Shown in pieces: positions 2,463 through 30,360 of a stretch of 64,000 bases of DNA. The stretch is taken from positions 1,598 to 65,597 of the IMG/VR virus record IMGVR_UViG_2799112420_000002. The stretch is one strand, 5' to 3'. Every line of letters begins with the position of its first letter. Within the stretch, counting starts at the first letter, position 1. The notes beneath the pieces were generated by a model, which worked only from the letters and a program-made list of their open reading frames with translations, ran no database searches and was not told where the DNA came from. A program made the translations under genes and the position numbers. This DNA comes from a virus. Its lineage: Duplodnaviria; Caudoviricetes.

Positions 2463-2885
2463 TTATTTTCCCTGGCTTCCGGTTTCTTTCAATAATAATG
2501 TATCTTCTCTTAATGCCGCCGAGACCTTTTCGACTATCCTATCTTCCATTGCTTCCAGATAGGCAGTCTGCTCCTGGGTAAATGGTGGCTTTTTGGTCGG
2601 TTTGAAATCTCTGGGCTGCTCAGCGGCTTTTTCGTTCTGGTGGATTACTTCATTATATTGTACAGGCGCGATGTGATCCGGATAACCTTCCGGAATAGGA
2701 GCAAGCCCGACAACGCAGTCAATAGAAACGCCAAAAATCCTCGACAGCTGGATAGCCGTCTCGAGAGATGGAGTTTTCTTTTCGCTTTCCCACTCGCTGA
2801 TCGATGCTTGCTTAGATCCGAGCCTGTTTGCCACATCTTCCTGACTTAGATGCGCTCGTTTACGGAGTTCCTTCATATTATTCAC
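2463..2885 (-). CDS. CI-like Xre/HTH_3 repressor, no S24 peptidase domain
   Basis: N-terminal HTH (LSQEDVANRLG...SISEWES); divergent from a cro-like gene. Confidence 0.85.
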   Translation of the reverse strand: MNNMKELRKRAHLSQEDVANRLGSKQASISEWESEKKTPSLETAIQLSRIFGVSIDCVVGLAPIPEGYPDHIAPVQYNEVIHQNEKAAEQPRDFKPTKKPPFTQEQTAYLEAMEDRIVEKVSAALREDTLLLKETGSQGK

Positions 2886-2906
2886 TCAAATCACCTACAT
2901 AATTAT

Positions 2907-3000
2907 ATAGCTCACAGCAATAATAAAGCAAGATAAAAAAATATAGGGAAATGCTATTGACAGTACCATAGTAAAATGCTATATTATAGCAGGACACTAT
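2907..3000. promoter_or_regulatory. Lysis/lysogeny switch: four ATAG-N7-CTAT operators and a rightward promoter
   Basis: Operators at 2907-2921 (1 mismatch), 2943-2957, 2968-2982 and 2986-3000. TTGACA (2957-2962), 17-bp spacer, TATATT (2980-2985). Confidence 0.8.
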
Positions 3001-3017
3001 GAAAGGAGGAAAACAGA

Positions 3018-3224
3018 ATGATCAATGCGCGGGAAATCCGGAAGCAGAGAGGGCTGAAGCAGTGCGAGCTCGCTCGCATGGTAGGTCTTGAGCAGGGCAG
3101 TCTTTCTGACATCGAAAACGAGAAGAAAAATCCGAGCTTCGATGTTCTGATTCGTCTGGCCCTGGCGCTCGATTGCTCCCTGGATGAGCTTGTGGATGTG
3201 AAGTCACATCCCGCTGCTTCCTAA
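3018..3224 (+). CDS. Cro-like HTH regulator
   Basis: 68-aa Xre HTH (LKQCELARMVGLEQGSLSDIEN). Confidence 0.85.
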   Translation: MINAREIRKQRGLKQCELARMVGLEQGSLSDIENEKKNPSFDVLIRLALALDCSLDELVDVKSHPAAS

Positions 3225-3254
3225 TTAAAAATACGACAAAAAGAGGGTATCAAA

Positions 3255-3713
3255 ATGGCTGTATTTTCAGGAATGGACCTGCGCAACTGGCGAAATTCGA
3301 AGAATATCAGCGCAGAAGAGCTGGGGATGCGGATAGGCTACGATGCCTCGACGATCTACCGCATTGAAAAAGAAGTGCAGACGCCGGGCCCCAAGGAAAT
3401 GATGCTGATCTGCGACGCGCTCGGAGACAGATCCAAGTGGGATGCCTGGATGCGGACCGTTTATCCGGAAAGCTACGGAAGAATGGTCCCGGAGCCGGTT
3501 CCTTACGGACTGGAAGGATCCATCCTGACGTTGAAAAGCGAGATGAAGGATCTGAAAGGCCTGATGCAGGAAACGATCCGGGACGGCGCGGACGGAAAGA
3601 TTGACAGCGTCATGTTGCGGGAGAAGCTGCTGAAGGAGCTGACAGAGCTCATGAGCGCGGCCCAGGGCATGATCCAGCTGCTGACGGAAAGGAGCGGTGG
3701 AAATGGCGCTTAG
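3255..3713 (+). CDS. Xre-HTH phage regulatory protein with helical C-terminal domain
   Basis: N-terminal HTH (SAEELGMRIGYDASTIYRIEK); C-terminus contains DGKID. Confidence 0.7.
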   Translation: MAVFSGMDLRNWRNSKNISAEELGMRIGYDASTIYRIEKEVQTPGPKEMMLICDALGDRSKWDAWMRTVYPESYGRMVPEPVPYGLEGSILTLKSEMKDLKGLMQETIRDGADGKIDSVMLREKLLKELTELMSAAQGMIQLLTERSGGNGA

Positions 3714-4477: not shown

Positions 4478-4643
4478 CGTTGGACGCTACTGGGACTGCC
4501 CGGCACACATCAAGATCCGCGGGAACCACAGGACATTCCGTCAGTGGTTGCTCCGGAAGTTCTTCCGGCCGGTGGAATATCCGGATCTTCTGATGATCAG
4601 TGATTATCATCCTGCCTACTATCCGTCCGGATATAAAAAGTGA
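4470..4643 (+). CDS. Hypothetical protein
   Basis: AAGGAGG RBS precedes ATG at 4470. Confidence 0.5.
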   Translation: MTNVGRYWDCPAHIKIRGNHRTFRQWLLRKFFRPVEYPDLLMISDYHPAYYPSGYKK

Positions 4644-4749: not shown

Positions 4750-5646
4750 TTGGAAAACGAGCTGATTATTGTCAAGCAGCTGCCGGTGATCGAGGATCAG
4801 CTGGCCGCAGTCAAGGCGAGCATTACTGAGCGGGTCAATCAGGCGCTCTCCCTGGTCTGCACGGAAGAAACCTACAAGGATGTGAAGAAGGTCCGCTCCG
4901 ATCTGAATAAGGAATACGCGGAGCTGGAGACCAGGAGGAAGGAAGTCAAGGCCGCGGTCATGGCTCCCTATGAGAAATTCGAGGCAGTTTACAAGGACTG
5001 TGCCGGAGATCTGTACAAGGACGCTGATCTGAAGCTGAAGCAGAAGATCGCTGAAGTGGAAAACGGCCTGCGGAAGCAGAAGGAAGAAAAGCTCCTGGAT
5101 TGGTTCAACGAGTATCGCGAGAGCAACGGAATCGAAGCTGACTTTGTGGCCTTCGATGACACCGGGATCAAGGTTGGCCTGACGGACAGCCTCACCAGTC
5201 TGAAGAAGCGGGCCAAAGATTTCCTGGACCACATCGTGGATGACCTGAAGGCGATCGCTACTCATGAGGACCGCGACGAGATCATGACGGAGTACAGGCG
5301 TGGATACAATCTGGGTGTTTCCATGTCGACTGTCGCAGCCCGCCACAAGGCGATTGAGGACGCCAGGAAAGCCAGGGAGGAAGCGGAAGCCCGCCGGAAG
5401 GCCCAGGAGGAACAGCAGAAGTCCCTCGAGGCCGTGATTGCTGCTCAGGTTGCGCAGGAGGCCCCGGTTGCTGCTCCTGTGACCGTGGAGGTCGTAGAGT
5501 CCGTCCCGGAAGTGAGCCCTGTTCCTGAGGCTCCTGTGACCGAAAAAACGTATTCCACTTCATTCAGAGTTACCGGAACGCTGGAAAAGCTGAAGGCGCT
5601 GAAAGCGTTCCTGGTGGAAGGAGGCTATGAATATGAGCAGCTCTAA
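4750..5646 (+). CDS. DUF1351-like coiled-coil phage protein
   Basis: Helical 298 aa ending in LKAFLVEGGYEY; upstream of recT. Confidence 0.75.
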   Translation: MENELIIVKQLPVIEDQLAAVKASITERVNQALSLVCTEETYKDVKKVRSDLNKEYAELETRRKEVKAAVMAPYEKFEAVYKDCAGDLYKDADLKLKQKIAEVENGLRKQKEEKLLDWFNEYRESNGIEADFVAFDDTGIKVGLTDSLTSLKKRAKDFLDHIVDDLKAIATHEDRDEIMTEYRRGYNLGVSMSTVAARHKAIEDARKAREEAEARRKAQEEQQKSLEAVIAAQVAQEAPVAAPVTVEVVESVPEVSPVPEAPVTEKTYSTSFRVTGTLEKLKALKAFLVEGGYEYEQL

Positions 5647-6601
5647 CATTGTCGCCCAGAAGCAGCGCTTCTCTGTCGCGATCACGACGGACAGCTACAA
5701 AAAGCTGATCAACAACACGCTGCAGGACCCTGCCCGCGCTCAGCGGTTCGTTGCTTCCATCACTTCCGCAGTGGCCGTGAATCCGGCCCTGCAGGAGTGC
5801 ACCCCGCCGACCATTATCGCTGGTGCGCTCCTGGGAGAGAGCCTGAACCTCTCTCCCTCTCCGCAGCTGGGTCAGTACTATCTGGTGCCCTTTAAGACGA
5901 AAGTAAAGGGACCCGACGGGAAGCAGCTGTATCAGACCGACGCGGCCGGGAACAAGGTCCTGGACGCGAATGGAAAATGGATTCCGATCACCGAGTCCCG
6001 CGCTCAGTTTGTCCTCGGATATAAAGGTTATATCCAGCTGGCGATCCGGAGCGGGCAGTATTCCGATATAGATGTAATGGAAATCCGGGAGGGAGAGTAC
6101 CTCGGAAAGGATCCGCAGACCGGAAAGCCCCGCTTCCTGTTCATTGAGGACGATGAGCTCAGAGATAAGCTTCCGGTTGTTGGATATATGGCGTATTTCG
6201 AGTATCTCAACGGATTCCGGAAAGTTATGTACTGGTCCAAGGAAAAGATGATGGCCCATGCGGACAACTTTTCTGCGGCATTCAGCGCGGAGGCTTACAA
6301 ACGGATCCAGGCCGGTGAAGTCTCTGACCAGGACATGTGGAAGTATTCCAGCTTCTGGTACAAGAACTTCGATGACATGGCAAAGAAGACGCTGCTGCGG
6401 CAGCTGATCTCCCGCTGGGGAATCATGTCCATCGAGATGCAGCGCGGATATGTTGGAGACTCCAACTTCATCCAGGTTGAAAACGGCGAATTCGTGAATG
6501 TACCGGAGGAGCGTGTGGAGGGGCTGCAGCCTCAGCCCCGGGAGGAAGCGCCCGCTGCTCCGACAGCACAGGCCGAGAGCGTTAACCTTGCGGATCTGTG
6601 A
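5627..6601 (+). CDS. recT: RecT-family single-strand annealing protein
   Basis: LSPSPQLGQYYLVPF, AQFVLGYKGYIQLAIRSGQY and MAKKTLLRQL motifs. Confidence 0.9.
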   Translation: MNMSSSNIVAQKQRFSVAITTDSYKKLINNTLQDPARAQRFVASITSAVAVNPALQECTPPTIIAGALLGESLNLSPSPQLGQYYLVPFKTKVKGPDGKQLYQTDAAGNKVLDANGKWIPITESRAQFVLGYKGYIQLAIRSGQYSDIDVMEIREGEYLGKDPQTGKPRFLFIEDDELRDKLPVVGYMAYFEYLNGFRKVMYWSKEKMMAHADNFSAAFSAEAYKRIQAGEVSDQDMWKYSSFWYKNFDDMAKKTLLRQLISRWGIMSIEMQRGYVGDSNFIQVENGEFVNVPEERVEGLQPQPREEAPAAPTAQAESVNLADL

Positions 6602-7281
6602 TTGATTATCAAATCCTCTCCACGGGATCCTCCGGGAACGCCGTAATCGTCAACAAGGCTGTGCTGATCGATTGCGGCGTCCCGTACAGGGCCGTGGAGC
6701 CCTTCATTAAGGACCTGAAGCTAATCCTGCTGACGCACATCCATGGAGACCACTTCAAGGCATCCACGATCCGGAAGATTGCCGCAGAACGACCGCTGAT
6801 CCGGTTTGGTGCCCCTGAGTGGCTGATCATGCCGCTCAGGGATGCCGGGGTCAGTCTGAAGCAGGTGCTTCTTCTGAAGCCAGGATTCCGGTACAGCATG
6901 GGGATCTGTGACGTGATCCCAGTCCCGCTGGTCCATGACGTTCCGAATCAGGGATACAAGATCCATTTCCCAGGCGGGAAGATGATTTACGCAACGGATA
7001 CGGTCAACATGAATGGGATCACGGCTGAGAACTTTGACCTGTACATGGTCGAGGCCAACTACGGAGACGAGGAAATCCAGCAGCGGATCAATGATAAAAA
7101 GGCCAGCGGAGAGTACATCTACGAGAAGCGCGTACTGAAGACCCATTTATCCCGGGAGAAATGTAACGACTGGATCTACCGAAACGCAGGTCCGCAGAGT
7201 GAGATCATTTACCTGCACGGTCACAGGGAGGACGAGACGGATGCAGCAAGCGATGATAGGGGAGCTGAAGGGGCTGTCTAA
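6598..7281 (+). CDS. MBL-fold metallo-hydrolase (phage exonuclease partner of RecT)
   Basis: STGSSGNA, THIHGDH, HDV, TDT, EANY and THLS motifs. Confidence 0.88.
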   Translation: MIDYQILSTGSSGNAVIVNKAVLIDCGVPYRAVEPFIKDLKLILLTHIHGDHFKASTIRKIAAERPLIRFGAPEWLIMPLRDAGVSLKQVLLLKPGFRYSMGICDVIPVPLVHDVPNQGYKIHFPGGKMIYATDTVNMNGITAENFDLYMVEANYGDEEIQQRINDKKASGEYIYEKRVLKTHLSREKCNDWIYRNAGPQSEIIYLHGHREDETDAASDDRGAEGAV

Positions 7282-7822
7282 AGACTTCGACGGCCGCCAG
7301 ATCATCTCTGTTGCTGTCCAGGCTGACTTCCGGGAAGAGTACGACGATCTCAAGGATGGGAAAGTGACCGTCGTTATCAAGAAATACCGAAAAGGCCGAA
7401 GCCTCGATGCGAACGCAATGGCGTGGAGTCTCATAAACCAGATCGCAGCCAAACTGCAGGAAAAGGAGCCGAGGCACGGATGGACTCCGGAGGAAGTGTA
7501 TCGGACGGCAATAAGGGACGTCGCAGGAGCTTGTACAGTGCACTGCGTTCCGGATGATCAGATCCAGCAGTTTATAGAGGACTGGCAAAGCCTGGGAATA
7601 GGATTCCAGGTCGAAACATTTCCCAGCCGGATTGATGGCTGCACGAACGCAAAATTCTGGAAGGGATCCCACCTGTACGACACGCAGCAAATGTCTACAC
7701 TAATCAACATTCTTATCCAGGAGGCCGAGCAGCAGGGTATACATACGATCACAGACAAGGAGATCCAGAAAAAGCTCGAAGGGTGGCAGAAGGCGTATGA
7801 CAAGAAGCATTCTCCAGGATGA
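7241..7822 (+). CDS. NinB/Orf-like recombination protein
   Basis: RSLDANAMAW and YDTQQMSTLI..LIQEAEQQGI patterns. Confidence 0.6.
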   Translation: MQQAMIGELKGLSKDFDGRQIISVAVQADFREEYDDLKDGKVTVVIKKYRKGRSLDANAMAWSLINQIAAKLQEKEPRHGWTPEEVYRTAIRDVAGACTVHCVPDDQIQQFIEDWQSLGIGFQVETFPSRIDGCTNAKFWKGSHLYDTQQMSTLINILIQEAEQQGIHTITDKEIQKKLEGWQKAYDKKHSPG

Positions 7823-8075
7823 AAAAGTCTGCTACCTGTGTCCCAGGTCCTTTGGGCTTGAAAAGCATCACATTCTATCAGGGGTGGCCAACAGAAGGCT
7901 GTCTGAAAAGTACGGTCTCTGGGTCTACCTCTGCCAGGAACATCACACAGGAAAGAAGGGAGCGCAGTATGAGAAAGATCTGAACCGGTTGCTGAAGCAG
8001 CAAGCACAGATAGCGTTTGAAGCCATTCACGGTCACGATCTGTGGATGAAGGTTTTTCGAAAAAACTATTTATGA
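7797..8075 (+). CDS. Small HNH-like Zn-binding phage protein
   Basis: CYLC...HHI...VYLC.EHH. Confidence 0.6.
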   Translation: MTRSILQDEKVCYLCPRSFGLEKHHILSGVANRRLSEKYGLWVYLCQEHHTGKKGAQYEKDLNRLLKQQAQIAFEAIHGHDLWMKVFRKNYL

Positions 8076-8090
8076 AGAGAGGGTATCAAA

Positions 8091-8741
8091 ATGGAAAAGA
8101 AGATTCTGAAGGTCCGCGTCACGATGTTCGAAGAGATCCTTGGAACCGCAAGCGCAAATCCGGAAATCCACGAGGAGTTTATCGCCAGTAAAGCGCCGGA
8201 CGCTCCCAGCCGGGAGGAAGAGGTCGCCGCGATCGGCGCGGAGGAAGTGTTCGAGAAGGGCATGACGGTGTTCCCGCGGGGCGCGGATGGAAAGCCCATC
8301 GCCTGGGATTATCAATGGAAAGGTTTCTTCAAGGACGCCTGTGCGGCTCTGCGGAAGGTGCCGAAGAGCGAGTGCGGAAAGATCAAAGCCTATAAAAAAG
8401 AGATCGATGGCTTAATTTTTCCGGAACCCAGGATGATTCCGATCAAGTTTGACGGCGAAATTGGCATCTGCCAGCGTCCTCTGCGCGGCCAGACGGCCCA
8501 GGGCGAGCGGATCGCGCTGGCGAGCTCTGAGAGCATTCCCGCGGGCGCTACGATGGAGTTCACAATCAAGCTGCTTCTCCCGGATCACGAGAAGGCCGTT
8601 CTTGAAATGCTGGACTATGGTCAGCTGCGTGGATTTGGTCAGTGGAGAAACAGCGGGAAAGGCCGTTTCTGGTTTGAGGCATGGGATGAAAACGGAAAGC
8701 TGATCTCCAGCAATCTTCCCGCTGATGAAGCCGCTTCGTAA
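8091..8741 (+). CDS. Stand-alone Cas7/RAMP-like protein
   Basis: N-terminal beta strand KVRVTMFEEILGT, RAMP-type helix P.AWDYQWKGFFKDAC, and C-terminal glycine loop GQLRGFGQWRNSGKGRF. No other cas gene in the window. Confidence 0.75.
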   Translation: MEKKILKVRVTMFEEILGTASANPEIHEEFIASKAPDAPSREEEVAAIGAEEVFEKGMTVFPRGADGKPIAWDYQWKGFFKDACAALRKVPKSECGKIKAYKKEIDGLIFPEPRMIPIKFDGEIGICQRPLRGQTAQGERIALASSESIPAGATMEFTIKLLLPDHEKAVLEMLDYGQLRGFGQWRNSGKGRFWFEAWDENGKLISSNLPADEAAS

Positions 8742-8763
8742 CGGACAAGCTCGGCTTCCTTTT

Positions 8764-9330
8764 GAAGGGCATGGGAGCGGCACGGACGAGTTCCGAGCTG
8801 CGGTGGCAGAGTACAGAGCAGTCAGCCCAGCGCAGATAGGCCGGGAAGGGAGCTGCTGAGGCACGGAAGCGAAGCAAACGGAGATGCGGCGGCACAGCGC
8901 CGGATCGAAGGGCCGGGATTCGCACAGCAGCGGAATGGAAAAGATCAGGAATGGACAGCACCGGCATGGAAGCGCAGGGCAGGGATCAGCAATGGATGAG
9001 CGGGGCCTATCATCGCAAAGCACCGGAAGAGTGAGGAGAGGCATAGTACCGGATGAAAAGGAAGAGGAGAGAACCGCATAGAGCTGCACGGGGCGACGAG
9101 AAGCTGGGTATTGAAAAGAAAAGGAGATGCGATGAGCGGACCAGCGTGGGAATAGCTCAGTTGGGATACGCTGGGAATCGAAAAGATCAGTTGCGGAAAA
9201 GCGTGGAAGGGCATCGTGCGGCATAGGAGTGCTGTGAACAGAAATGGAAAGGAGAGGCGGCTCAAAGACATGAGACGAAACGGATCTGCATGGTGCAGAA
9301 AGGATGCGCTGGGTAAAGCGTAGGTTAATG
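8764..9330 (+). repeat. Non-coding pentamer-periodic array, (G-N-W-N-N)n, putative guide-RNA array
   Basis: G every 5 nt in long runs, e.g. 8825-8865 (9 consecutive), 8892-8937 (10), 9150-9195 (10), 9196-9256 (13), 9283-9323 (9). Phase slips are mostly +1 at GG doublets. Confidence 0.85.
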
Positions 9331-9355
9331 GAAATAATACTGTAGGAGTAGGCCA

Positions 9356-10072
9356 ATGAAAGAGTGGTTCAAAGCTCAGAAGAGTTGGGGTGCAGCGATT
9401 CAGAGCCTTTCCGATGTCGAAGTGGGACGTCTGATGAAAGCAGTGTGGCATTACGCTACTACTGGTGAGCAGAGGGATCTTTCTGGAGGAGAAAAGGTGA
9501 TCTTCGCTTTAATCACAATGGAGCTGAGCCAAAATGAGGCTAAGGATGCTTTGATATCAAAGAAGCGATCGGAGGCTGGTTCACTCGGAGGAAAACAACG
9601 GGTAGCAAATGCAAGCAAATGCTATCAAATTCAAGCAAATGCTACTTTTGCTAAGCAAAATGTAGCAAAAGAATCAAATGCTTCTAATAAAGAAGTAGTA
9701 GTAGAAGTAGTAGAAGACGATAGTAGTTTATTTATCAACAGTGAAGAAGCAGGGATTATACGTAGTGAACATGAGAGAGTACTTGATGCTGCAGAAATAG
9801 CTGGGTTTGATAGAACAGACTACGTAAGGAGTAAGCTGATCGACCTGTATGCAGACAATGGCCTGGAAAAGATGCTGAGCGCTATAGAAGCATGCGCGGA
9901 GCACGGAGCTCCGACCGTCGCGTATCTCAAGGGCGTCCTCAAAGGAGGCCCCAGGAAGCAGAGCCAGAACAAGGCTGTTCCTGCGCAGCAGTACGCGCAG
10001 CGAGACTACTCCGGAGCTGACGAAGAGGCCATGAAGCGGATGCTGGAAATGGCTGAGGAAAACCGCGCATGA
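9356..10072 (+). CDS. Replication initiator (DUF6291-like N-terminus, DnaD-like C-terminus)
   Basis: SLSDVEVGRLMKAVWHYA N-domain; C-domain ...AYLKGVLK; internal iterons. Confidence 0.8.
   Translation: MKEWFKAQKSWGAAIQSLSDVEVGRLMKAVWHYATTGEQRDLSGGEKVIFALITMELSQNEAKDALISKKRSEAGSLGGKQRVANASKCYQIQANATFAKQNVAKESNASNKEVVVEVVEDDSSLFINSEEAGIIRSEHERVLDAAEIAGFDRTDYVRSKLIDLYADNGLEKMLSAIEACAEHGAPTVAYLKGVLKGGPRKQSQNKAVPAQQYAQRDYSGADEEAMKRMLEMAEENRA
9601..9685. repeat. Iterons inside the initiator gene (likely phage ori)
   Basis: AGCAAATGC-like units at 10-bp spacing, plus an inverted TTTTGCT, in AT-rich context. Confidence 0.7.
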
Positions 10073-10440
10073 CGGCCGTGGAAACGCAGTGCGGAACCTG
10101 CGAATACTCGAAGAAGAATGCAGGGAACATGGTCTACTGCATTCTCTTCGGGATTATCATTCACGCCAGGCACACAGGGTGTAAGTATCACAGCGGAGGA
10201 CATGATGAGCAAGTACGGGAACAGGAAAACGACGATGTTCGGATTTACATTCGACAGCAAGCACGAAGCGGAGCGGTATCTGGAGCTTCGGGCCATGGAG
10301 CGGGAGGGAAAAATCATGCACCTGGCCACGCAGGTCCCGTTCGAGCTGATTCCGATGCAGCTGGACAAAAACGGGAAGATTCTGGAGAGACCTACCCGTT
10401 ACATCGCGGACTTCACGTACTGGGTCCGAGACGGAAATGA
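10069..10440 (+). CDS. Cys-rich hypothetical protein; the 3' part overlaps the next gene
   Basis: CGTC..C..C N-terminus, coupled to the initiator stop (ATGA). The long overlap is doubtful. Confidence 0.4.
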   Translation: MTAVETQCGTCEYSKKNAGNMVYCILFGIIIHARHTGCKYHSGGHDEQVREQENDDVRIYIRQQARSGAVSGASGHGAGGKNHAPGHAGPVRADSDAAGQKREDSGETYPLHRGLHVLGPRRK

Positions 10441-10555
10441 CGCCAGCGGTTTCCGGTATGTTGTCGAAGACGCCAAGGGATGTAAAACCGAGGTTTACCG
10501 GCTGAAGAAAAAACTGATGCTGCTGATGCACGGCATCCAGGTGCAGGAGGTTTGA
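10202..10555 (+). CDS. DUF1064-like PD-(D/E)XK nuclease
   Basis: SKYGNRK..FDSKHEAERY...YIADFTY...VVEDAKG. Confidence 0.85.
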   Translation: MMSKYGNRKTTMFGFTFDSKHEAERYLELRAMEREGKIMHLATQVPFELIPMQLDKNGKILERPTRYIADFTYWVRDGNDASGFRYVVEDAKGCKTEVYRLKKKLMLLMHGIQVQEV

Positions 10556-10556
10556 A

Positions 10557-10952
10557 ATGGCAAAGTCGCTGAGGGAAATGAGACGGATGCAAGCGAGGAA
10601 AGACGCGCATCTTGTCCGCATGATGGAAGCCAGCCCGGTTGAAAGGCAGAAGGCGGCGCTCTTCCGGAACGGGATCACGTTCAAGGACGTGGAGACCGAG
10701 AAGAAAGCGGCGTTTTCGGAAGGGCGAAAGCTCGCGGAGGAGTTTTCATTCCACACGATCTATGCAGCCGTTCTGATCACCATGGTAGAGCATCATGGAT
10801 GGGATCCGGACGCGGCTGCGGATCTCCTGCGGGAGATTGATAAACAGGTGGTTCTCTGCGTCGAGGATCAGGATCTGGCCAACGAGGCCTTTGAAAAAAC
10901 GGGGATCCATCTCCAGTGGGATGATCCGATCGAAAGAATACAGGAGGGATGA
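10557..10952 (+). CDS. Hypothetical protein
   Basis: Operon-coupled ORF, 131 aa. Confidence 0.6.
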   Translation: MAKSLREMRRMQARKDAHLVRMMEASPVERQKAALFRNGITFKDVETEKKAAFSEGRKLAEEFSFHTIYAAVLITMVEHHGWDPDAAADLLREIDKQVVLCVEDQDLANEAFEKTGIHLQWDDPIERIQEG

Positions 10953-10955
10953 CTT

Positions 10956-11384
10956 ATCAATAAGCTCACTATCATCGGAAACCTCACCCGCGATCCGGAA
11001 TTGCGGACCACAAGCGCAGGGATCAATGTGTGCTCTTTCTCGGTTGCCGTAAACCGCAGGAAGACGCAGCAGAACCAGGACCCGGGAGCCGACTACTTCA
11101 ACGTGTCTGCATGGCGGCAGCTGGGCGAAAACTGTGCGAAGTGGCTGATCAAGGGGAGAAAAGTGTGTGTTGTTGGTCCCGTAACTGTCCGGATGTACAC
11201 ACGCAATGACGGCACACCCGGCGCGAGTATGGAAGTCACAGCGGAAGATGTCGAGTTTCTGTCATCTGCGCAGGACCGGGAGCAGGATTATCATTCTGAG
11301 CCCGCTGCACCCGCAGCGCAGGAACCGAAGAAAGATTCATCCGGAATGACACCGGTGGACACACCGGATGATCTGCCGTTCTAA
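10956..11384 (+). CDS. ssb: Single-stranded DNA-binding protein (apparent ATC start)
   Basis: (I)NKLTIIGNLTRDPELRTT...DYFNVSAW...C-terminal DDLPF. RBS GGAGGG lies 7 nt before ATC at 10956. Confidence 0.9.
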   Translation: MNKLTIIGNLTRDPELRTTSAGINVCSFSVAVNRRKTQQNQDPGADYFNVSAWRQLGENCAKWLIKGRKVCVVGPVTVRMYTRNDGTPGASMEVTAEDVEFLSSAQDREQDYHSEPAAPAAQEPKKDSSGMTPVDTPDDLPF

Positions 11385-11404
11385 AACTGTTCCGGAGGTA
11401 GGTT

Positions 11405-11905
11405 ATGAGCCCGCAAACACTGACGGAGATACTGAAGAGGTACAGGGTGTCAATCATGAGGTGCATCTATCTGCAGGATCAGCTGAAAATGCTGGACGGG
11501 TTCCTGAGAAAGTGCCAGGGTGAAATGATAGAGGATCAGGTGACCATGAGCCAGGCGATCACCGGCATGCCGCATGGAACGACCGTTGGAGACCCTGTGA
11601 GTCGGCTCGCAATCGACATTGCCTCCGGGGAGATCACACCATTCGTCAAAGAGATCCAGGAGGAAATCCGGCAGGTTAAAGCGGAACTTGAAAAGCTCTC
11701 CGCTGAAGTGCGGACAGTGGAAACTGTCCTGAATGCACTGAACGACCGGGAACGGAAGCTGTTCGAGATGAAAATGATCGACCAGTTTTCATGGCCGGAG
11801 ATCCTGAGCCGGATGAACCGGGAATACAACAACAGCTACTCAAAACGGACCCTGCAGCGGCTCCTGGAACGGGCGATGGATAAAGCGCAGGAAACCGTAC
11901 AGTAA
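11405..11905 (+). CDS. ArpU/RinA-like late transcriptional activator
   Basis: C-terminal sigma-region-4-like HTH (LNDRERKLFEMKMIDQFSWPEI). Confidence 0.65.
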   Translation: MSPQTLTEILKRYRVSIMRCIYLQDQLKMLDGFLRKCQGEMIEDQVTMSQAITGMPHGTTVGDPVSRLAIDIASGEITPFVKEIQEEIRQVKAELEKLSAEVRTVETVLNALNDRERKLFEMKMIDQFSWPEILSRMNREYNNSYSKRTLQRLLERAMDKAQETVQ

Positions 11906-28302: not shown

Positions 28303-30360
28303 ATGAAATTCAGCAGGAACCCTGAATCCGGCCAGCTGGAGATCTATACGGATGAAGGCGTTTACCTGGGAGTCATGTCCACCATGGGTGATGACATCGG
28401 AGAAAGATCCGCAGAGGACGGAGGCCCGGGCTCCGGCAATTATGGTCACAAAGGCCGTCCCGGGAAAGTTGGAGGATCCGGCCCTGGCGGCGGGAAGCAG
28501 TACCGAGGCGGCAGATCTGACATTGGCTATTATAACAGTCGGAAAGACTGGCTGAACGGGCTGCAGGGAGAACGGCAGCATGAAGCGGTCCGGAAAATTG
28601 CGAACGCGAAGAAGGATTATGAGGCGAAGCTTGCTGCAAAGCAGAAGATCGAACAGCTTCGCAATCGAGGATTCCTCACACACGCGGAAGCAGAAGAGAG
28701 GATCAAAGAAGGGAAGCTCGAAAAAGTCAGGGAAGGGATGACCCCGGAAGAGTACATTCTGACAGCTGGAAACCGCAGCGACCGCCAGGATATGCTGAGT
28801 ATGATGAAGGAGGCAAGGACCTGGGACGAAACCAAACAGCGACTGGTCAACGAGAACCTTTCCGACGATGAAAAGAAGATCTATCAGGCTATCAGGGAAG
28901 CGGATCTGGAAAAAGTTGACGTTCCGACCGGTGCAAGGGTTATGGACGTCATGACGCTGCTTGAGGCGAAGGCCATGGGTATTATAGAATCCGAAATTGA
29001 TGTGCCGGATGATATCCAGTATATCATCGGAACAAAAGAAGCCCCAGCGCCTCCGAAACCGAAAATCCCGCAGAATTCAGACGAAAACAACGCCTGGCTG
29101 GAAGGACAGCCGCAGGAAAAACAGGATTACATTCTTGGCATCGTCAGAGGCCTTGGGATCAACCCACAGGCTTTTGGCGGCGATATTGCCATGAATTACG
29201 CTGAAAAGCGGATGATGATGGACGTCTGGAACGGAAACGAAAAAGCAATATGGGAATGCAGACGTTATCTCGATGCGAAAGATGGAATGCTCGGAACGAA
29301 CTTCTTTAAGCAGTGCCAGGAAGCCGCGGATCCGAACAGCGCATCAAACATCGGAAACCTCGGAGACAAGCCTTCGATTATTATGAGTATGTTCCTGGAA
29401 TCTCTCGCAGACGAACAGCGGGAAGACAACCCGGCAACCTACGTTTCTTCGCATGGAGACATCCTGGAGTCCGGATTCCTGCATGATAAAGACGTCCCAA
29501 AGTCGGCAAAAGCCGCTTATCTGCAGCTGAAGGCCATTGCGCTTGGACAAGAGACGTATGCGGTCCGTCCGGATGATGTAGCCAAAGAGCTGCATAAGTA
29601 CATGAACGAGCGGAAGCGGATCCGTCAGGAGGAAAAAGAATTCGGTCCGAAGCGAAAAGCCTTCAAACAGGATCGCGAGAAGCGCCAGAAGGAATACTCA
29701 AACGCAAAGAACGCCACAGAGGTCGGAGACGCGATGCGGAAGAGCGGCATGTTCAGAAATGGCGCGAAAACTGAGCTGAAAAAAGTAAGCCTGGAATGCG
29801 CGAAGGAAGTCGCTACCGCGTACGAAAACGTCATGGATAAATACCCGTTCCTGATCGGCCAGCTGAACGGAATTGATGAAGGGGAAACAGCCAACAGCTC
29901 AACATACGCCTCCTGCAACATGACTTTCGGCGGGAAGGTATCTCTGAACGCTCATGACAGGTATTTCGGAAACCTGAACAGTTTGCTGTCAACCTACAGC
30001 GAAGACGTGAGGACAGGATATCATCCGGCCGGAACAAACGGAACTTCCGTTATTACGCATGAAATCGGACACGCGCTGGACGGCTATCTGTCTCAGCGAG
30101 GCGTAAATGGTGCCAGACTCCTCAGCACAGACGCAAATGCTTTCTCTGGTATTTTAAGGCGAAGCGTGTTAAAATCATTGAAGATGACAAAAGCATCCGT
30201 AAGAACAGAACTCAGCCGATACGCGGAAAAGAACGCATACGAGTGGTTCGCAGAGTGTTTCGCGGAAGCCATGACATCGGAAAATCCGAGGCCTATGGCC
30301 AAGGAAATGATGCGTCAGCTGGACGAGATTCTGAAGAAGGAGGGGCTGATCAGTGCCTGA
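28303..30360 (+). CDS. Putative head-cargo protein with a C-terminal zincin metallopeptidase domain
   Basis: 38-aa leader, then DGGPGSGNYGHKGRPGKVGGSG; HEIGH ... SRYA..N.YEWFAECF. Confidence 0.75.
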   Translation: MKFSRNPESGQLEIYTDEGVYLGVMSTMGDDIGERSAEDGGPGSGNYGHKGRPGKVGGSGPGGGKQYRGGRSDIGYYNSRKDWLNGLQGERQHEAVRKIANAKKDYEAKLAAKQKIEQLRNRGFLTHAEAEERIKEGKLEKVREGMTPEEYILTAGNRSDRQDMLSMMKEARTWDETKQRLVNENLSDDEKKIYQAIREADLEKVDVPTGARVMDVMTLLEAKAMGIIESEIDVPDDIQYIIGTKEAPAPPKPKIPQNSDENNAWLEGQPQEKQDYILGIVRGLGINPQAFGGDIAMNYAEKRMMMDVWNGNEKAIWECRRYLDAKDGMLGTNFFKQCQEAADPNSASNIGNLGDKPSIIMSMFLESLADEQREDNPATYVSSHGDILESGFLHDKDVPKSAKAAYLQLKAIALGQETYAVRPDDVAKELHKYMNERKRIRQEEKEFGPKRKAFKQDREKRQKEYSNAKNATEVGDAMRKSGMFRNGAKTELKKVSLECAKEVATAYENVMDKYPFLIGQLNGIDEGETANSSTYASCNMTFGGKVSLNAHDRYFGNLNSLLSTYSEDVRTGYHPAGTNGTSVITHEIGHALDGYLSQRGVNGARLLSTDANAFSGILRRSVLKSLKMTKASVRTELSRYAEKNAYEWFAECFAEAMTSENPRPMAKEMMRQLDEILKKEGLISA

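What the first reader, a model, noticed from the sequence alone, without database searches (positions are those of the whole stretch)
8764..9330. Strict 5-nt periodicity with divergent pentamers, not a decayed tandem repeat
Seen, counted by hand: G at exact 5-nt spacing for 9 consecutive units (8825-8865), 10 (8892-8937), 10 (9150-9195), 13 (9196-9256) and 9 (9283-9323). The third position is mostly A/T; for example 9196-9255 reads GAAAA GCGTG GAAGG GCATC GTGCG GCATA GGAGT GCTGT GAACA GAAAT GGAAA GGAGA. Positions 2, 4 and 5 vary freely and neighbouring pentamers are rarely identical. Inference: a microsatellite would homogenise all five positions, whereas here mainly the anchor positions are conserved, which suggests selection on register plus information stored in the variable bases. 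Period 5 is also incompatible with codon structure.
Basis: seen in the sequence. Interest (0 to 1): 0.85.

Follow-up and report, generated by a model that had tools for sequence, protein, structure and literature searches.

The report
Phage VIPR guide-RNA repeat array
The 600-base stretch with a G every five bases is real and is very probably the guide-RNA array of a prophage "VIPR" system, a CRISPR-like RNA-guided DNA-silencing device first described in 2026 preprints, so it is a new example of a known kind.

Summary
All five claimed G runs are exact. G-G autocorrelation at lag 5 is z=8.3 against dinucleotide shuffles. There are 6 runs of 8 or more Gs, against 0.15 expected.

The phase slips forward by one base every 5-7 units. 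This gives a Fourier peak at 5.14 nt and no signal at exactly 5.00. About 115 units fill the whole gap 8744-9327. Only position 1 (G) carries real information.

The upstream gene (8091-8741) folds as a minimal Cas7-type RAMP with a glycine-rich loop. All 14 viral contigs that encode a homologue carry the same kind of array on the gene's strand. The array sequences cannot be aligned even where the genes are about 80% identical.

This matches the published VIPR systems: a Vipr RAMP plus pentanucleotide vrRNAs, including NNNNG repeats and staggered arrays. The protein aligns end to end with SUSP1 Vipr and shares its G-loop (D/Q)-W-R triad.

This clade has one conserved G per unit, no tail, no conserved accessory gene, and arrays of up to about 4.7 kb per phage. 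One guide matches a conjugative element in the same genome 18/18 under the published skip rule (P about 0.02). That match is suggestive only.

The scan has met VIPR loci before on other DNA.

The parts
8091..8741 (+). vipr gene: 216-aa minimal Cas7-type RAMP. It has an RRM core, a thumb-like hairpin at about residues 125-143, and a glycine-rich loop GFGQWRNSGKGRF at residues 181-193.
   Evidence: AlphaFold2 model: pTM 0.73. Foldseek top hits are all Cas7-family subunits, E down to 3e-7. VIA-align gives Z 11.8 to Csm3 and 10-11 to Cmr4, type VII Cas7 and Csf2. hhalign to SUSP1 Vipr is collinear over 1-198 / 1-192 with E=0.004. No Pfam or PHROG family matches. The family holds 1703 clusters at 50% identity.
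8744..9327 (+). vrRNA array: about 115 pentanucleotide units of the G-first form G-H-A-N-N (NNNNG type). A 6-nt GG unit causes a +1 phase slip every 5-7 units.
   Evidence: statistics and segmentation; information content; no RNA secondary structure, z=-0.74; no promoter-like or terminator-like site inside the gap 8742-9355; no Rfam family, no tRNA.
8825..8865 (+). Constant-phase block, 9 Gs.
8892..8937 (+). Constant-phase block, 10 Gs.
9150..9195 (+). Constant-phase block, 10 Gs.
9196..9256 (+). Constant-phase block, 13 Gs. It is the longest in the array.
   Evidence: Read as a gapped guide, it has no match in 301 genomes of the family.
9277..9322 (+). Last nine units. This is a candidate guide: the two bases 5' of each G match contig C19:31519-31546 at 18/18 positions when every third target base is skipped.
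   Evidence: P=0.018 by unit shuffling. The target lies in a SpaA-adhesin gene of a conjugative element.
9356..10072 (+). Next gene downstream (DUF6291, replication-initiator-like). It marks the 3' limit of the gap and is not part of the system.
   Evidence: It is not conserved next to vipr in other loci.

Best explanation
The tract is the guide-RNA (vrRNA) array of a prophage-borne VIPR system, and the gene just upstream (8091-8741) encodes its Vipr protein, a minimal Cas7-like RAMP.

Inferred by analogy with the characterised SUSP1 system:
- The array is transcribed with vipr.
- Vipr protomers polymerise along the RNA, one per 5-nt unit.
- Each protomer holds the conserved G (and weakly the next one or two bases) with its G-loop and thumb.
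- The variable bases are displayed for gapped base pairing to double-stranded DNA of a competing mobile element, which is then silenced in a CRISPRi-like way.

The +1 slips (GG junctions) every 5-7 units probably mark the boundaries of individual short guides of form G(NNNNG)n. This would correspond to the 'staggered arrays' of the preprint.

Shown here: the periodicity, its conservation as a pattern but not as sequence, the link to the gene and its strand, the RAMP fold, and the distant homology to SUSP1 Vipr.

Inferred only: transcription, processing, RNP formation, which two or three positions pair, and the targets.
For: (1) The periodicity is highly non-random and unique in the genome.

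(2) 14 of 14 viral contigs with a homologue of the upstream protein (43-89% identity) have a G-periodic array next to the gene and on its strand. The two roughly 73-kb phages have four arrays each, all on that strand.

(3) DNA similarity to relatives stops at the end of the gene. The arrays are hypervariable, yet G at position 1 is kept at 85-97%.

(4) The protein model matches only Cas7-family RAMPs at the top of two independent structure searches. Weak sequence hits to Cas7 and Cas6 chains point the same way, and the ESM Atlas gave a faint RAMP lead at 0.75, below its own 0.9 reliability line.

(5) The alignment to SUSP1 Vipr is end to end and collinear, at 25% identity with E=0.004. The G-loop triad D177-W178-R179, which reads the GG in the cryo-EM structure, corresponds to the invariant Q184-W185-R186 here.

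(6) The discovery preprint describes phage-borne vipr genes flanked by long intergenic pentanucleotide arrays. It names NNNNG and YNNNG variants and staggered arrays offset by 1 nt. A second group reports 21 non-canonical period-5 clusters next to Vipr-like folds.

(7) My scanner finds the known SUSP1 vrRNAs as a positive control.

(8) The array has no RNA structure beyond shuffles. It has no terminator-like or promoter-like site between it and vipr.

(9) One 9-unit guide matches a co-resident conjugative element 18/18 under the published xNN rule, and the match ends sharply at both sides.
Against: - Sequence homology to a published Vipr is weak: hhalign probability is 8.5%, and the family profile found nothing in the SUSP1 genome.
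- Only one G per unit is conserved, not GGY.
- There is no conserved 3' tail or pseudoknot, and no conserved accessory (vap) gene.
- No expression data exist for this locus.
- No pairing rule is enriched over shuffles. This holds for about 2,800-3,400 units tested against the host genome plus 0.63 Mb of related phage genomes.
- The single perfect hit is only P about 0.02 before correction for the 12 rules tried.
- In that hit the skipped base falls on codon position 1, not on the wobble position favoured in the preprint.
Confidence: 0.88

Rival explanations
1. The RNA is a scaffold or sponge rather than a set of guides. The RAMP coats a kilobase-scale G-periodic RNA into a long filament. That filament might act as a decoy for host RNA-guided or RNA-sensing defences, or as a store of protein. 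The variable bases would carry no target information.
For: Arrays are very long and continuous, up to about 4.7 kb per phage, without tails. No target rule is enriched. Blocks of 5-7 units would specify only 10-14 nt under the NN rule.
Against: Positions 3-5 are close to maximal entropy and turn over completely between close relatives. That is expected for guides under diversifying selection, whereas a pure scaffold would tolerate simple repeats. The characterised relatives are guides. There is one sharp 18/18 match in a mobile element.
Confidence: 0.07
2. This is a DNA-level element. A G every ~5.15 bp is half a helical turn, so the tract could be a protein-binding array in the replication or recombination module, such as an origin, an iteron field or a RecT/SSB loading zone.
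For: In the window the tract sits between recombination genes (RecT, NinB) and replication genes (DUF6291, DUF1064, SSB). The mean period of 5.14-5.2 is close to half of 10.4 bp.
Against: In other phages the neighbours differ, and only the RAMP gene is constant. The G-rich strand is always the sense strand of that gene, 15 of 15 loci, which points to RNA. Arrays of 1-2 kb, several per genome and one of them 13 kb from the gene, do not fit an origin. The 5.14 period comes from discrete +1 slips at GG junctions, not from a smooth helical period.
Confidence: 0.03
3. This is a decaying pentanucleotide microsatellite, or a compositional accident of a purine-rich spacer.
For: Tandem Repeats Finder reports no repeat in the tract, as would be true of a badly decayed satellite.
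Against: A decayed satellite loses all positions alike. Here one position keeps 1.2-1.8 bits while the others are near 0, and this holds in 15 loci whose arrays share no alignable sequence. Shuffles never reproduce the run statistics.
Confidence: 0.01

Closest known systems
VIPR type II system of Escherichia phage phiSUSP1 (KT454805; vipr 28474-29061 on the minus strand, with vap1 and four vrRNAs). Sources: bioRxiv 10.64898/2026.04.26.720920, 10.64898/2026.04.26.720927 and 10.64898/2026.10.15.759431.
   Same: Both are phage-borne. Both have a minimal RAMP of about 200 aa ending in G-x-G-(D/Q)-W-R-...-G-R-F. Both have pentanucleotide repeats on the gene's strand in the flanking intergenic DNA. 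In both, fixed bases alternate with hypervariable bases, and there is no CRISPR array or cas operon.
   Different: SUSP1 has discrete vrRNAs of about 100 nt, each with 9-16 GGY/NN units and a conserved 3' tail with a pseudoknot, plus a vap1 gene. Here only one G per unit is conserved. The tract is continuous over about 115 units, and up to about 900 units per phage in relatives. It is punctuated by +1 slips, with no tail and no conserved accessory gene. The residues that form the Y3 pocket in SUSP1 (E71, M72, C173, V175) are F79, F80, R180 and F182 here.
Non-canonical VIPR arrays: NNNGG, YNNNG and NNNNG repeats and 'staggered arrays' (methods and fig. S18 legend of 10.64898/2026.04.26.720920), and the 21 non-canonical period-5 clusters of 10.64898/2026.10.21.760802.
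   Same: A single-G or degenerate pentamer consensus. Contiguous guides are offset by 1 nt. A Vipr-like fold is encoded next to the array.
   Different: The figures and tables were not available to me, so I could not confirm that this clade, or its type number, is among those described.
Class 1 CRISPR backbone: Cas7, Csm3, Cmr4 or Csf2 filament on crRNA.
   Same: The same fold, with RRM, G-loop and thumb. One protomer binds per short RNA segment, and bases are flipped periodically.
   Different: The CRISPR period is 6 nt with 5 contiguous pairing bases, the repeats and spacers are long, and adaptation and effector genes are present. Here the period is 5 nt, there are no cas genes, and pairing is presumably gapped.
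TRAP binding sites in Bacillus trp leaders: (G/U)AG triplets separated by 2-3 nt.
   Same: RNA with a 5-6-nt period read by an oligomeric protein.
   Different: TRAP sites have only 9-11 repeats and are read by a ring protein of an unrelated fold. This resemblance rests on my own knowledge and was not tested.

Membership tests
VIPR (Vipr protein + vrRNA) | The protein is a RAMP with an RRM core, a glycine-rich loop and a thumb. | tested here: met
   Model pTM 0.73. Foldseek gives Cas7-family chains at E 3e-7 to 1e-4. VIA-align gives Z 11.8 / 11.3 / 11.2 / 10.8 to Csm3, Csm3, Cmr4 and type VII Cas7. The G-loop GFGQWRNSGKGRF is invariant in 13 homologues. A conserved, low-confidence hairpin at 125-143 sits in the thumb position.
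VIPR (Vipr protein + vrRNA) | Homology to a published Vipr protein. | tested here: inconclusive
   hhalign of the family alignment against SUSP1 Vipr is collinear over the full length, with 25% identity and E=0.004, but probability is only 8.5%. The (D/Q)-W-R triad of the G-loop is shared. A profile search of the SUSP1 genome found nothing. The seed X1U2U4 was not available.
VIPR (Vipr protein + vrRNA) | Tandem pentanucleotide repeats, with fixed and variable positions, lie in the intergenic DNA flanking vipr on its strand. | tested here: met
   for the window. 14 of 14 related loci show the same. The consensus is NNNNG / YNNNG rather than YNNGG, which the preprint lists as alternatives.
VIPR (Vipr protein + vrRNA) | Viral or proviral context, with no CRISPR array or cas operon. 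| tested here: met
   Neighbouring genes are RecT, an MBL-fold protein, NinB, DUF1064 and SSB. Homologues lie on IMG/VR viral contigs and gut phage records. The window has no Rfam CRISPR-DR hit or any other hit. The gene is absent from 60 related genomes.
VIPR (Vipr protein + vrRNA) | An accessory vap gene lies next to vipr. | tested here: not met
   No gene other than vipr is shared by more than 6 of the 15 loci. The preprint says some Vipr genes stand alone, so this is not a universal requirement.
VIPR type II architecture | Discrete vrRNAs of 9-16 GGY/NN units, each capped by a conserved structured 3' tail. | tested here: not met
   The tract is continuous, with one conserved G per unit. 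It has no structure beyond shuffles (z=-0.74) and no recurring tail. So it is not type II. It is closer to the 'staggered' arrays.
VIPR (Vipr protein + vrRNA) | The variable dinucleotides match natural DNA targets with one skipped base (xNN). | tested here: inconclusive
   There is one sharp 18/18 match in a co-resident conjugative element (P=0.018). Pooled tests show no enrichment under 15 rules against the host genome plus related loci and 18 rules against the related phage contigs. The 13-unit guide finds nothing in 301 family genomes.
VIPR (Vipr protein + vrRNA) | The array is transcribed and the RNA co-purifies with Vipr as a filament. | not testable with these tools
   This needs small-RNA sequencing and a pull-down.

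The most novel reading that the evidence does not exclude
This stand-alone, single-G clade may not work like the characterised type II system. It has kilobase-scale continuous arrays cut into 5n+1 blocks of about six units, no tail and no vap gene. Six units is about one turn of the published six-subunit binary filament. The clade may use many very short guides, or a different pairing register or code. It may also be aimed at conjugative elements as well as phages, as the one 18/18 match in a co-resident conjugative element hints.
Probability: 0.25. Interest if true: 0.65.

Novelty: new member of a known kind. Interest (0 to 1): 0.4.

Why it matters
VIPR is a newly described class of RNA-guided DNA recognition, proposed as an ancestor of the CRISPR RAMPs. 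This locus extends it to a prophage of a ~56% G+C anaerobe-type genome and to a large family of gut and rumen phages, with 1703 protein clusters at 50% identity.

The locus documents an extreme array form that has not been characterised experimentally. It has one conserved G per unit, about 115 units here and up to about 900 per phage, a regular 5n+1 punctuation, and no accessory gene.

If the pairing register and block boundaries of this form were worked out, two questions could be tested. One is how little fixed sequence a Vipr filament needs. The other is whether such systems police conjugative elements.

For annotation, the long antisense ORF over the array (8412-9356) should not be called a gene.

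Tried and rejected
- **Fourier test at exactly period 5:** no signal, because of the phase slips. I replaced it with autocorrelation and a fine periodogram.
- **Known RNA and DNA matches:** Rfam, tRNA search and blastn of the array against 50,697 phage records found nothing.
- **Other lag-5 signals in the genome (C37, C40):** ordinary coding repeats.
- **Family profile against the SUSP1 genome:** no hit.
- **Target search, host genome plus related loci:** 15 combinations of guide positions and target period gave no enrichment.
- **Target search, 0.63 Mb of full-length related phage contigs:** 18 combinations gave no enrichment. The only excess (contiguous, period 5) is probably residual array sequence shared by two near-identical phages; I did not inspect those hits.
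- **Near-matches of other guides in the conjugative element:** none beyond sub-windows of the one hit.
- **A second perfect hit (16/16):** it lies in secF and spans a dropped 4-nt unit, so I take it as chance.
- **The 13-unit guide in 301 family genomes, with up to 3 mismatches:** none.
- **The 9-unit target pattern in 45 congeners:** one 1-mismatch hit that differs at nearly every skipped base, compatible with chance.
- **Contiguous complementarity of the array to the host genome:** best match is 17 nt, E=0.095.
- **The tRNA-D-arm-like string at about 9146-9168:** a short match to a common motif and not significant.
- **Supplementary tables of the preprint:** not held, so the VIPR type number could not be assigned.

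Full report
**Observation**

The tract fills the 614-nt gap between two + strand genes, 8091-8741 and 9356-10072.

Against 1000 dinucleotide-preserving shuffles:
- G-G coincidence at lag 5 is 136 against 87.3 +/- 5.9 (z=8.3).
- Harmonics appear at lags 10, 15 and 20, and a peak appears at lag 26 instead of 25.
- Six runs of 8 or more Gs occur at spacing 5, against a shuffle mean of 0.15. No other spacing gives any.

A Fourier test at exactly 5.00 fails. The phase always moves forward by one base, so the sharp peak lies at 5.14 nt. Dynamic-programming segmentation gives about 120 units: 106 pentamers and 14 hexamers, and the hexamers nearly all begin with GG. The signal is unique in the window and in the 3.2-Mb genome.

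Composition on the + strand is G 38%, A 30%, C 19%, T 13%. Only position 1 carries real information (G 96% of pentamers, 1.7 bits). Position 2 avoids G and T. Position 3 is mildly A-rich (0.2 bit). Positions 4 and 5 are free.

**The tract is non-coding and unstructured**
- No period-3 signal.
- No tandem repeat by TRF.
- No Rfam family and no tRNA.
- RNA folding energy is no better than shuffles, z=-0.74.
- No promoter-like or terminator-like site inside the gap.
- The 314-aa antisense ORF 8412-9356 has no family match. Long antisense open frames are seen in most arrays because that strand is A-poor.

**Link to a gene**

The upstream 216-aa protein has no Pfam or PHROG family. It ends in a RAMP-type glycine-rich loop.

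Fourteen IMG/VR viral contigs encode homologues at 43-89% identity. Every one has a G-periodic tract next to the gene and on its sense strand. Array size ranges from about 0.4 kb to about 1.9 kb. In the two roughly 73-kb phages there are four arrays each, about 4.7 kb in all, and one lies 13 kb from the gene.

DNA similarity between the window and these loci covers 8100-8669 only. The arrays cannot be aligned, yet all keep G at position 1 (85-97%, 1.2-1.8 bits). Position 2 shows a clade-specific bias: A/C, C, or T/C. No other gene is conserved beside it.

All arrays share super-periods of 26, 31 and 36 nt. A GG hexamer recurs every 5-7 units. The junction consensus is loose, GCAAN|GGMANH|G.

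**The protein**

An AlphaFold2 model built from 13 homologues (pLDDT 77, pTM 0.73) matches only Cas7-family backbone subunits at the top of Foldseek. These are type VII Cas7, Csf2, Csm3, Cmr4 and Cas7-11, with E down to 3e-7. An independent all-against-representatives alignment agrees: Z 11.8 to Csm3, and 10-11 to Cmr4, type VII Cas7 and Csf2. Sequence search of the PDB gave weak Cas6 and Cas7 hits. The family is large, with 1703 clusters at 50% identity at E<=1e-3, and its nearest Atlas clusters are 88-98% viral. It is absent from 60 sampled relatives of the host.

**What it is**

A literature search found the VIPR preprints. They report the following:
- VIPR systems are phage-encoded minimal RAMPs (Vipr) flanked by long intergenic arrays of pentanucleotide repeats.
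- One protomer binds each repeat. In SUSP1 the G-loop D177-W178-R179, H17 and the thumb residue R138 hold GGY, and N4N5 pair with DNA while one target base is skipped.
- The discovery paper lists NNNGG, YNNNG and NNNNG variants, and 'staggered' arrays in which successive vrRNAs are offset by 1 nt.
- A separate study reports 21 non-canonical period-5 clusters next to Vipr-like folds.

I located the SUSP1 locus as a control, and its GGYNN vrRNAs and tails are plain. The window's protein family aligns with SUSP1 Vipr end to end, at 25% identity with hhalign E=0.004. The G-loop triad is Q184-W185-R186 here and is invariant. The residues forming the pyrimidine pocket differ, which fits the relaxed positions 2-3 of the repeat.

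The tract is therefore a vrRNA array of the single-G, staggered kind. The +1 slips are best read as junctions between guides of form G(NNNNG)n.

**Targets**

Taking the two bases 5' of each G as the guide, and skipping every third target base (the published rule), gives one result. The last nine units (9277-9322) match C19:31519-31546 at 18/18 positions, with no matching in the flanking units. P is 0.018 by 5000 unit shuffles, and 2551 windows from foreign arrays give no such hit.

The site lies in a SpaA-domain adhesin gene. That gene sits in an operon with ParA, ParB, sortase, two more adhesins, DUF3801, VirD4, TrbL and PrgI, which makes it a conjugative element.

Against this reading:
- Twelve rules were tried.
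- The skipped base is codon position 1, not the wobble position.
- No other guide has near-matches there.
- A 16/16 hit in secF shows what chance produces.
- Pooled tests against the host genome and against 0.63 Mb of related phage genomes show no enrichment for any rule.
- The 13-unit guide has no match in 301 genomes of the family.

I rate this target as about 30% likely to be real. The pairing register for this clade remains open.

**Verdict**

The system is of a kind already described in 2026 preprints, and this scan has met it on other DNA at least 15 times.

Features specific to this clade:
- one conserved G per unit;
- 5n+1 blocks;
- kilobase-scale arrays;
- no tail and no accessory gene;
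- a possible target in a conjugative element.

These make it a useful but not a new kind of finding.

Noticed in passing
L007/L008 contigs (handles G005:C1 56199-72490 and G006:C1 25081-41008): Two related phages of about 73 kb each carry four G-periodic arrays on the vipr strand. These total about 4.7 kb, roughly 900 units or about 6% of the genome. One array lies about 13 kb from the gene. In these arrays a conserved GCACA|GGCAAA junction recurs every 26-41 nt.
   Followed up: partly
Own genome contig C19:22000-41000 (locus L018): A conjugative-element gene cluster on the minus strand: DnaB-like helicase, ParA, ParB, sortase, three SpaA-domain adhesins, DUF3801, VirD4/TraG, TrbL/VirB6 and PrgI. 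It holds the only perfect gapped match to the array.
   Followed up: partly
window 8412-9356 (- strand): A 314-aa open frame lies antisense to the end of vipr and to the whole array. It is a composition artefact of the A-poor strand and could be mis-annotated as a gene. Similar antisense open frames occur over most related arrays.
   Followed up: yes
window 9146-9168: The string GGGAATAGCTCAGTTGGGATAC inside the array resembles a tRNA 5' half (D-arm) and stays in the G register. ARAGORN finds no tRNA, and the match to host tRNA genes is no more than about 14 nt, so it is probably coincidence.
   Followed up: yes
window 5627-8075 and 10118-11905: The prophage recombination and replication module around the locus: RecT, an MBL-fold protein, NinB/Orf-like, a Cys-rich 92-aa protein (phrog_7566), DUF1064, SSB and a sigma-like regulator, all on the + strand.
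   Followed up: partly
L010 3998-5014 (viral contig IMGVR_UViG_3300033463_000186): In this locus my mechanical ORF extension ran the vipr frame on into the array (338 aa). A later ORF call ended it at 4630. I did not resolve the discrepancy, and the 338-aa frame is likely an artefact of that extension.
   Followed up: no
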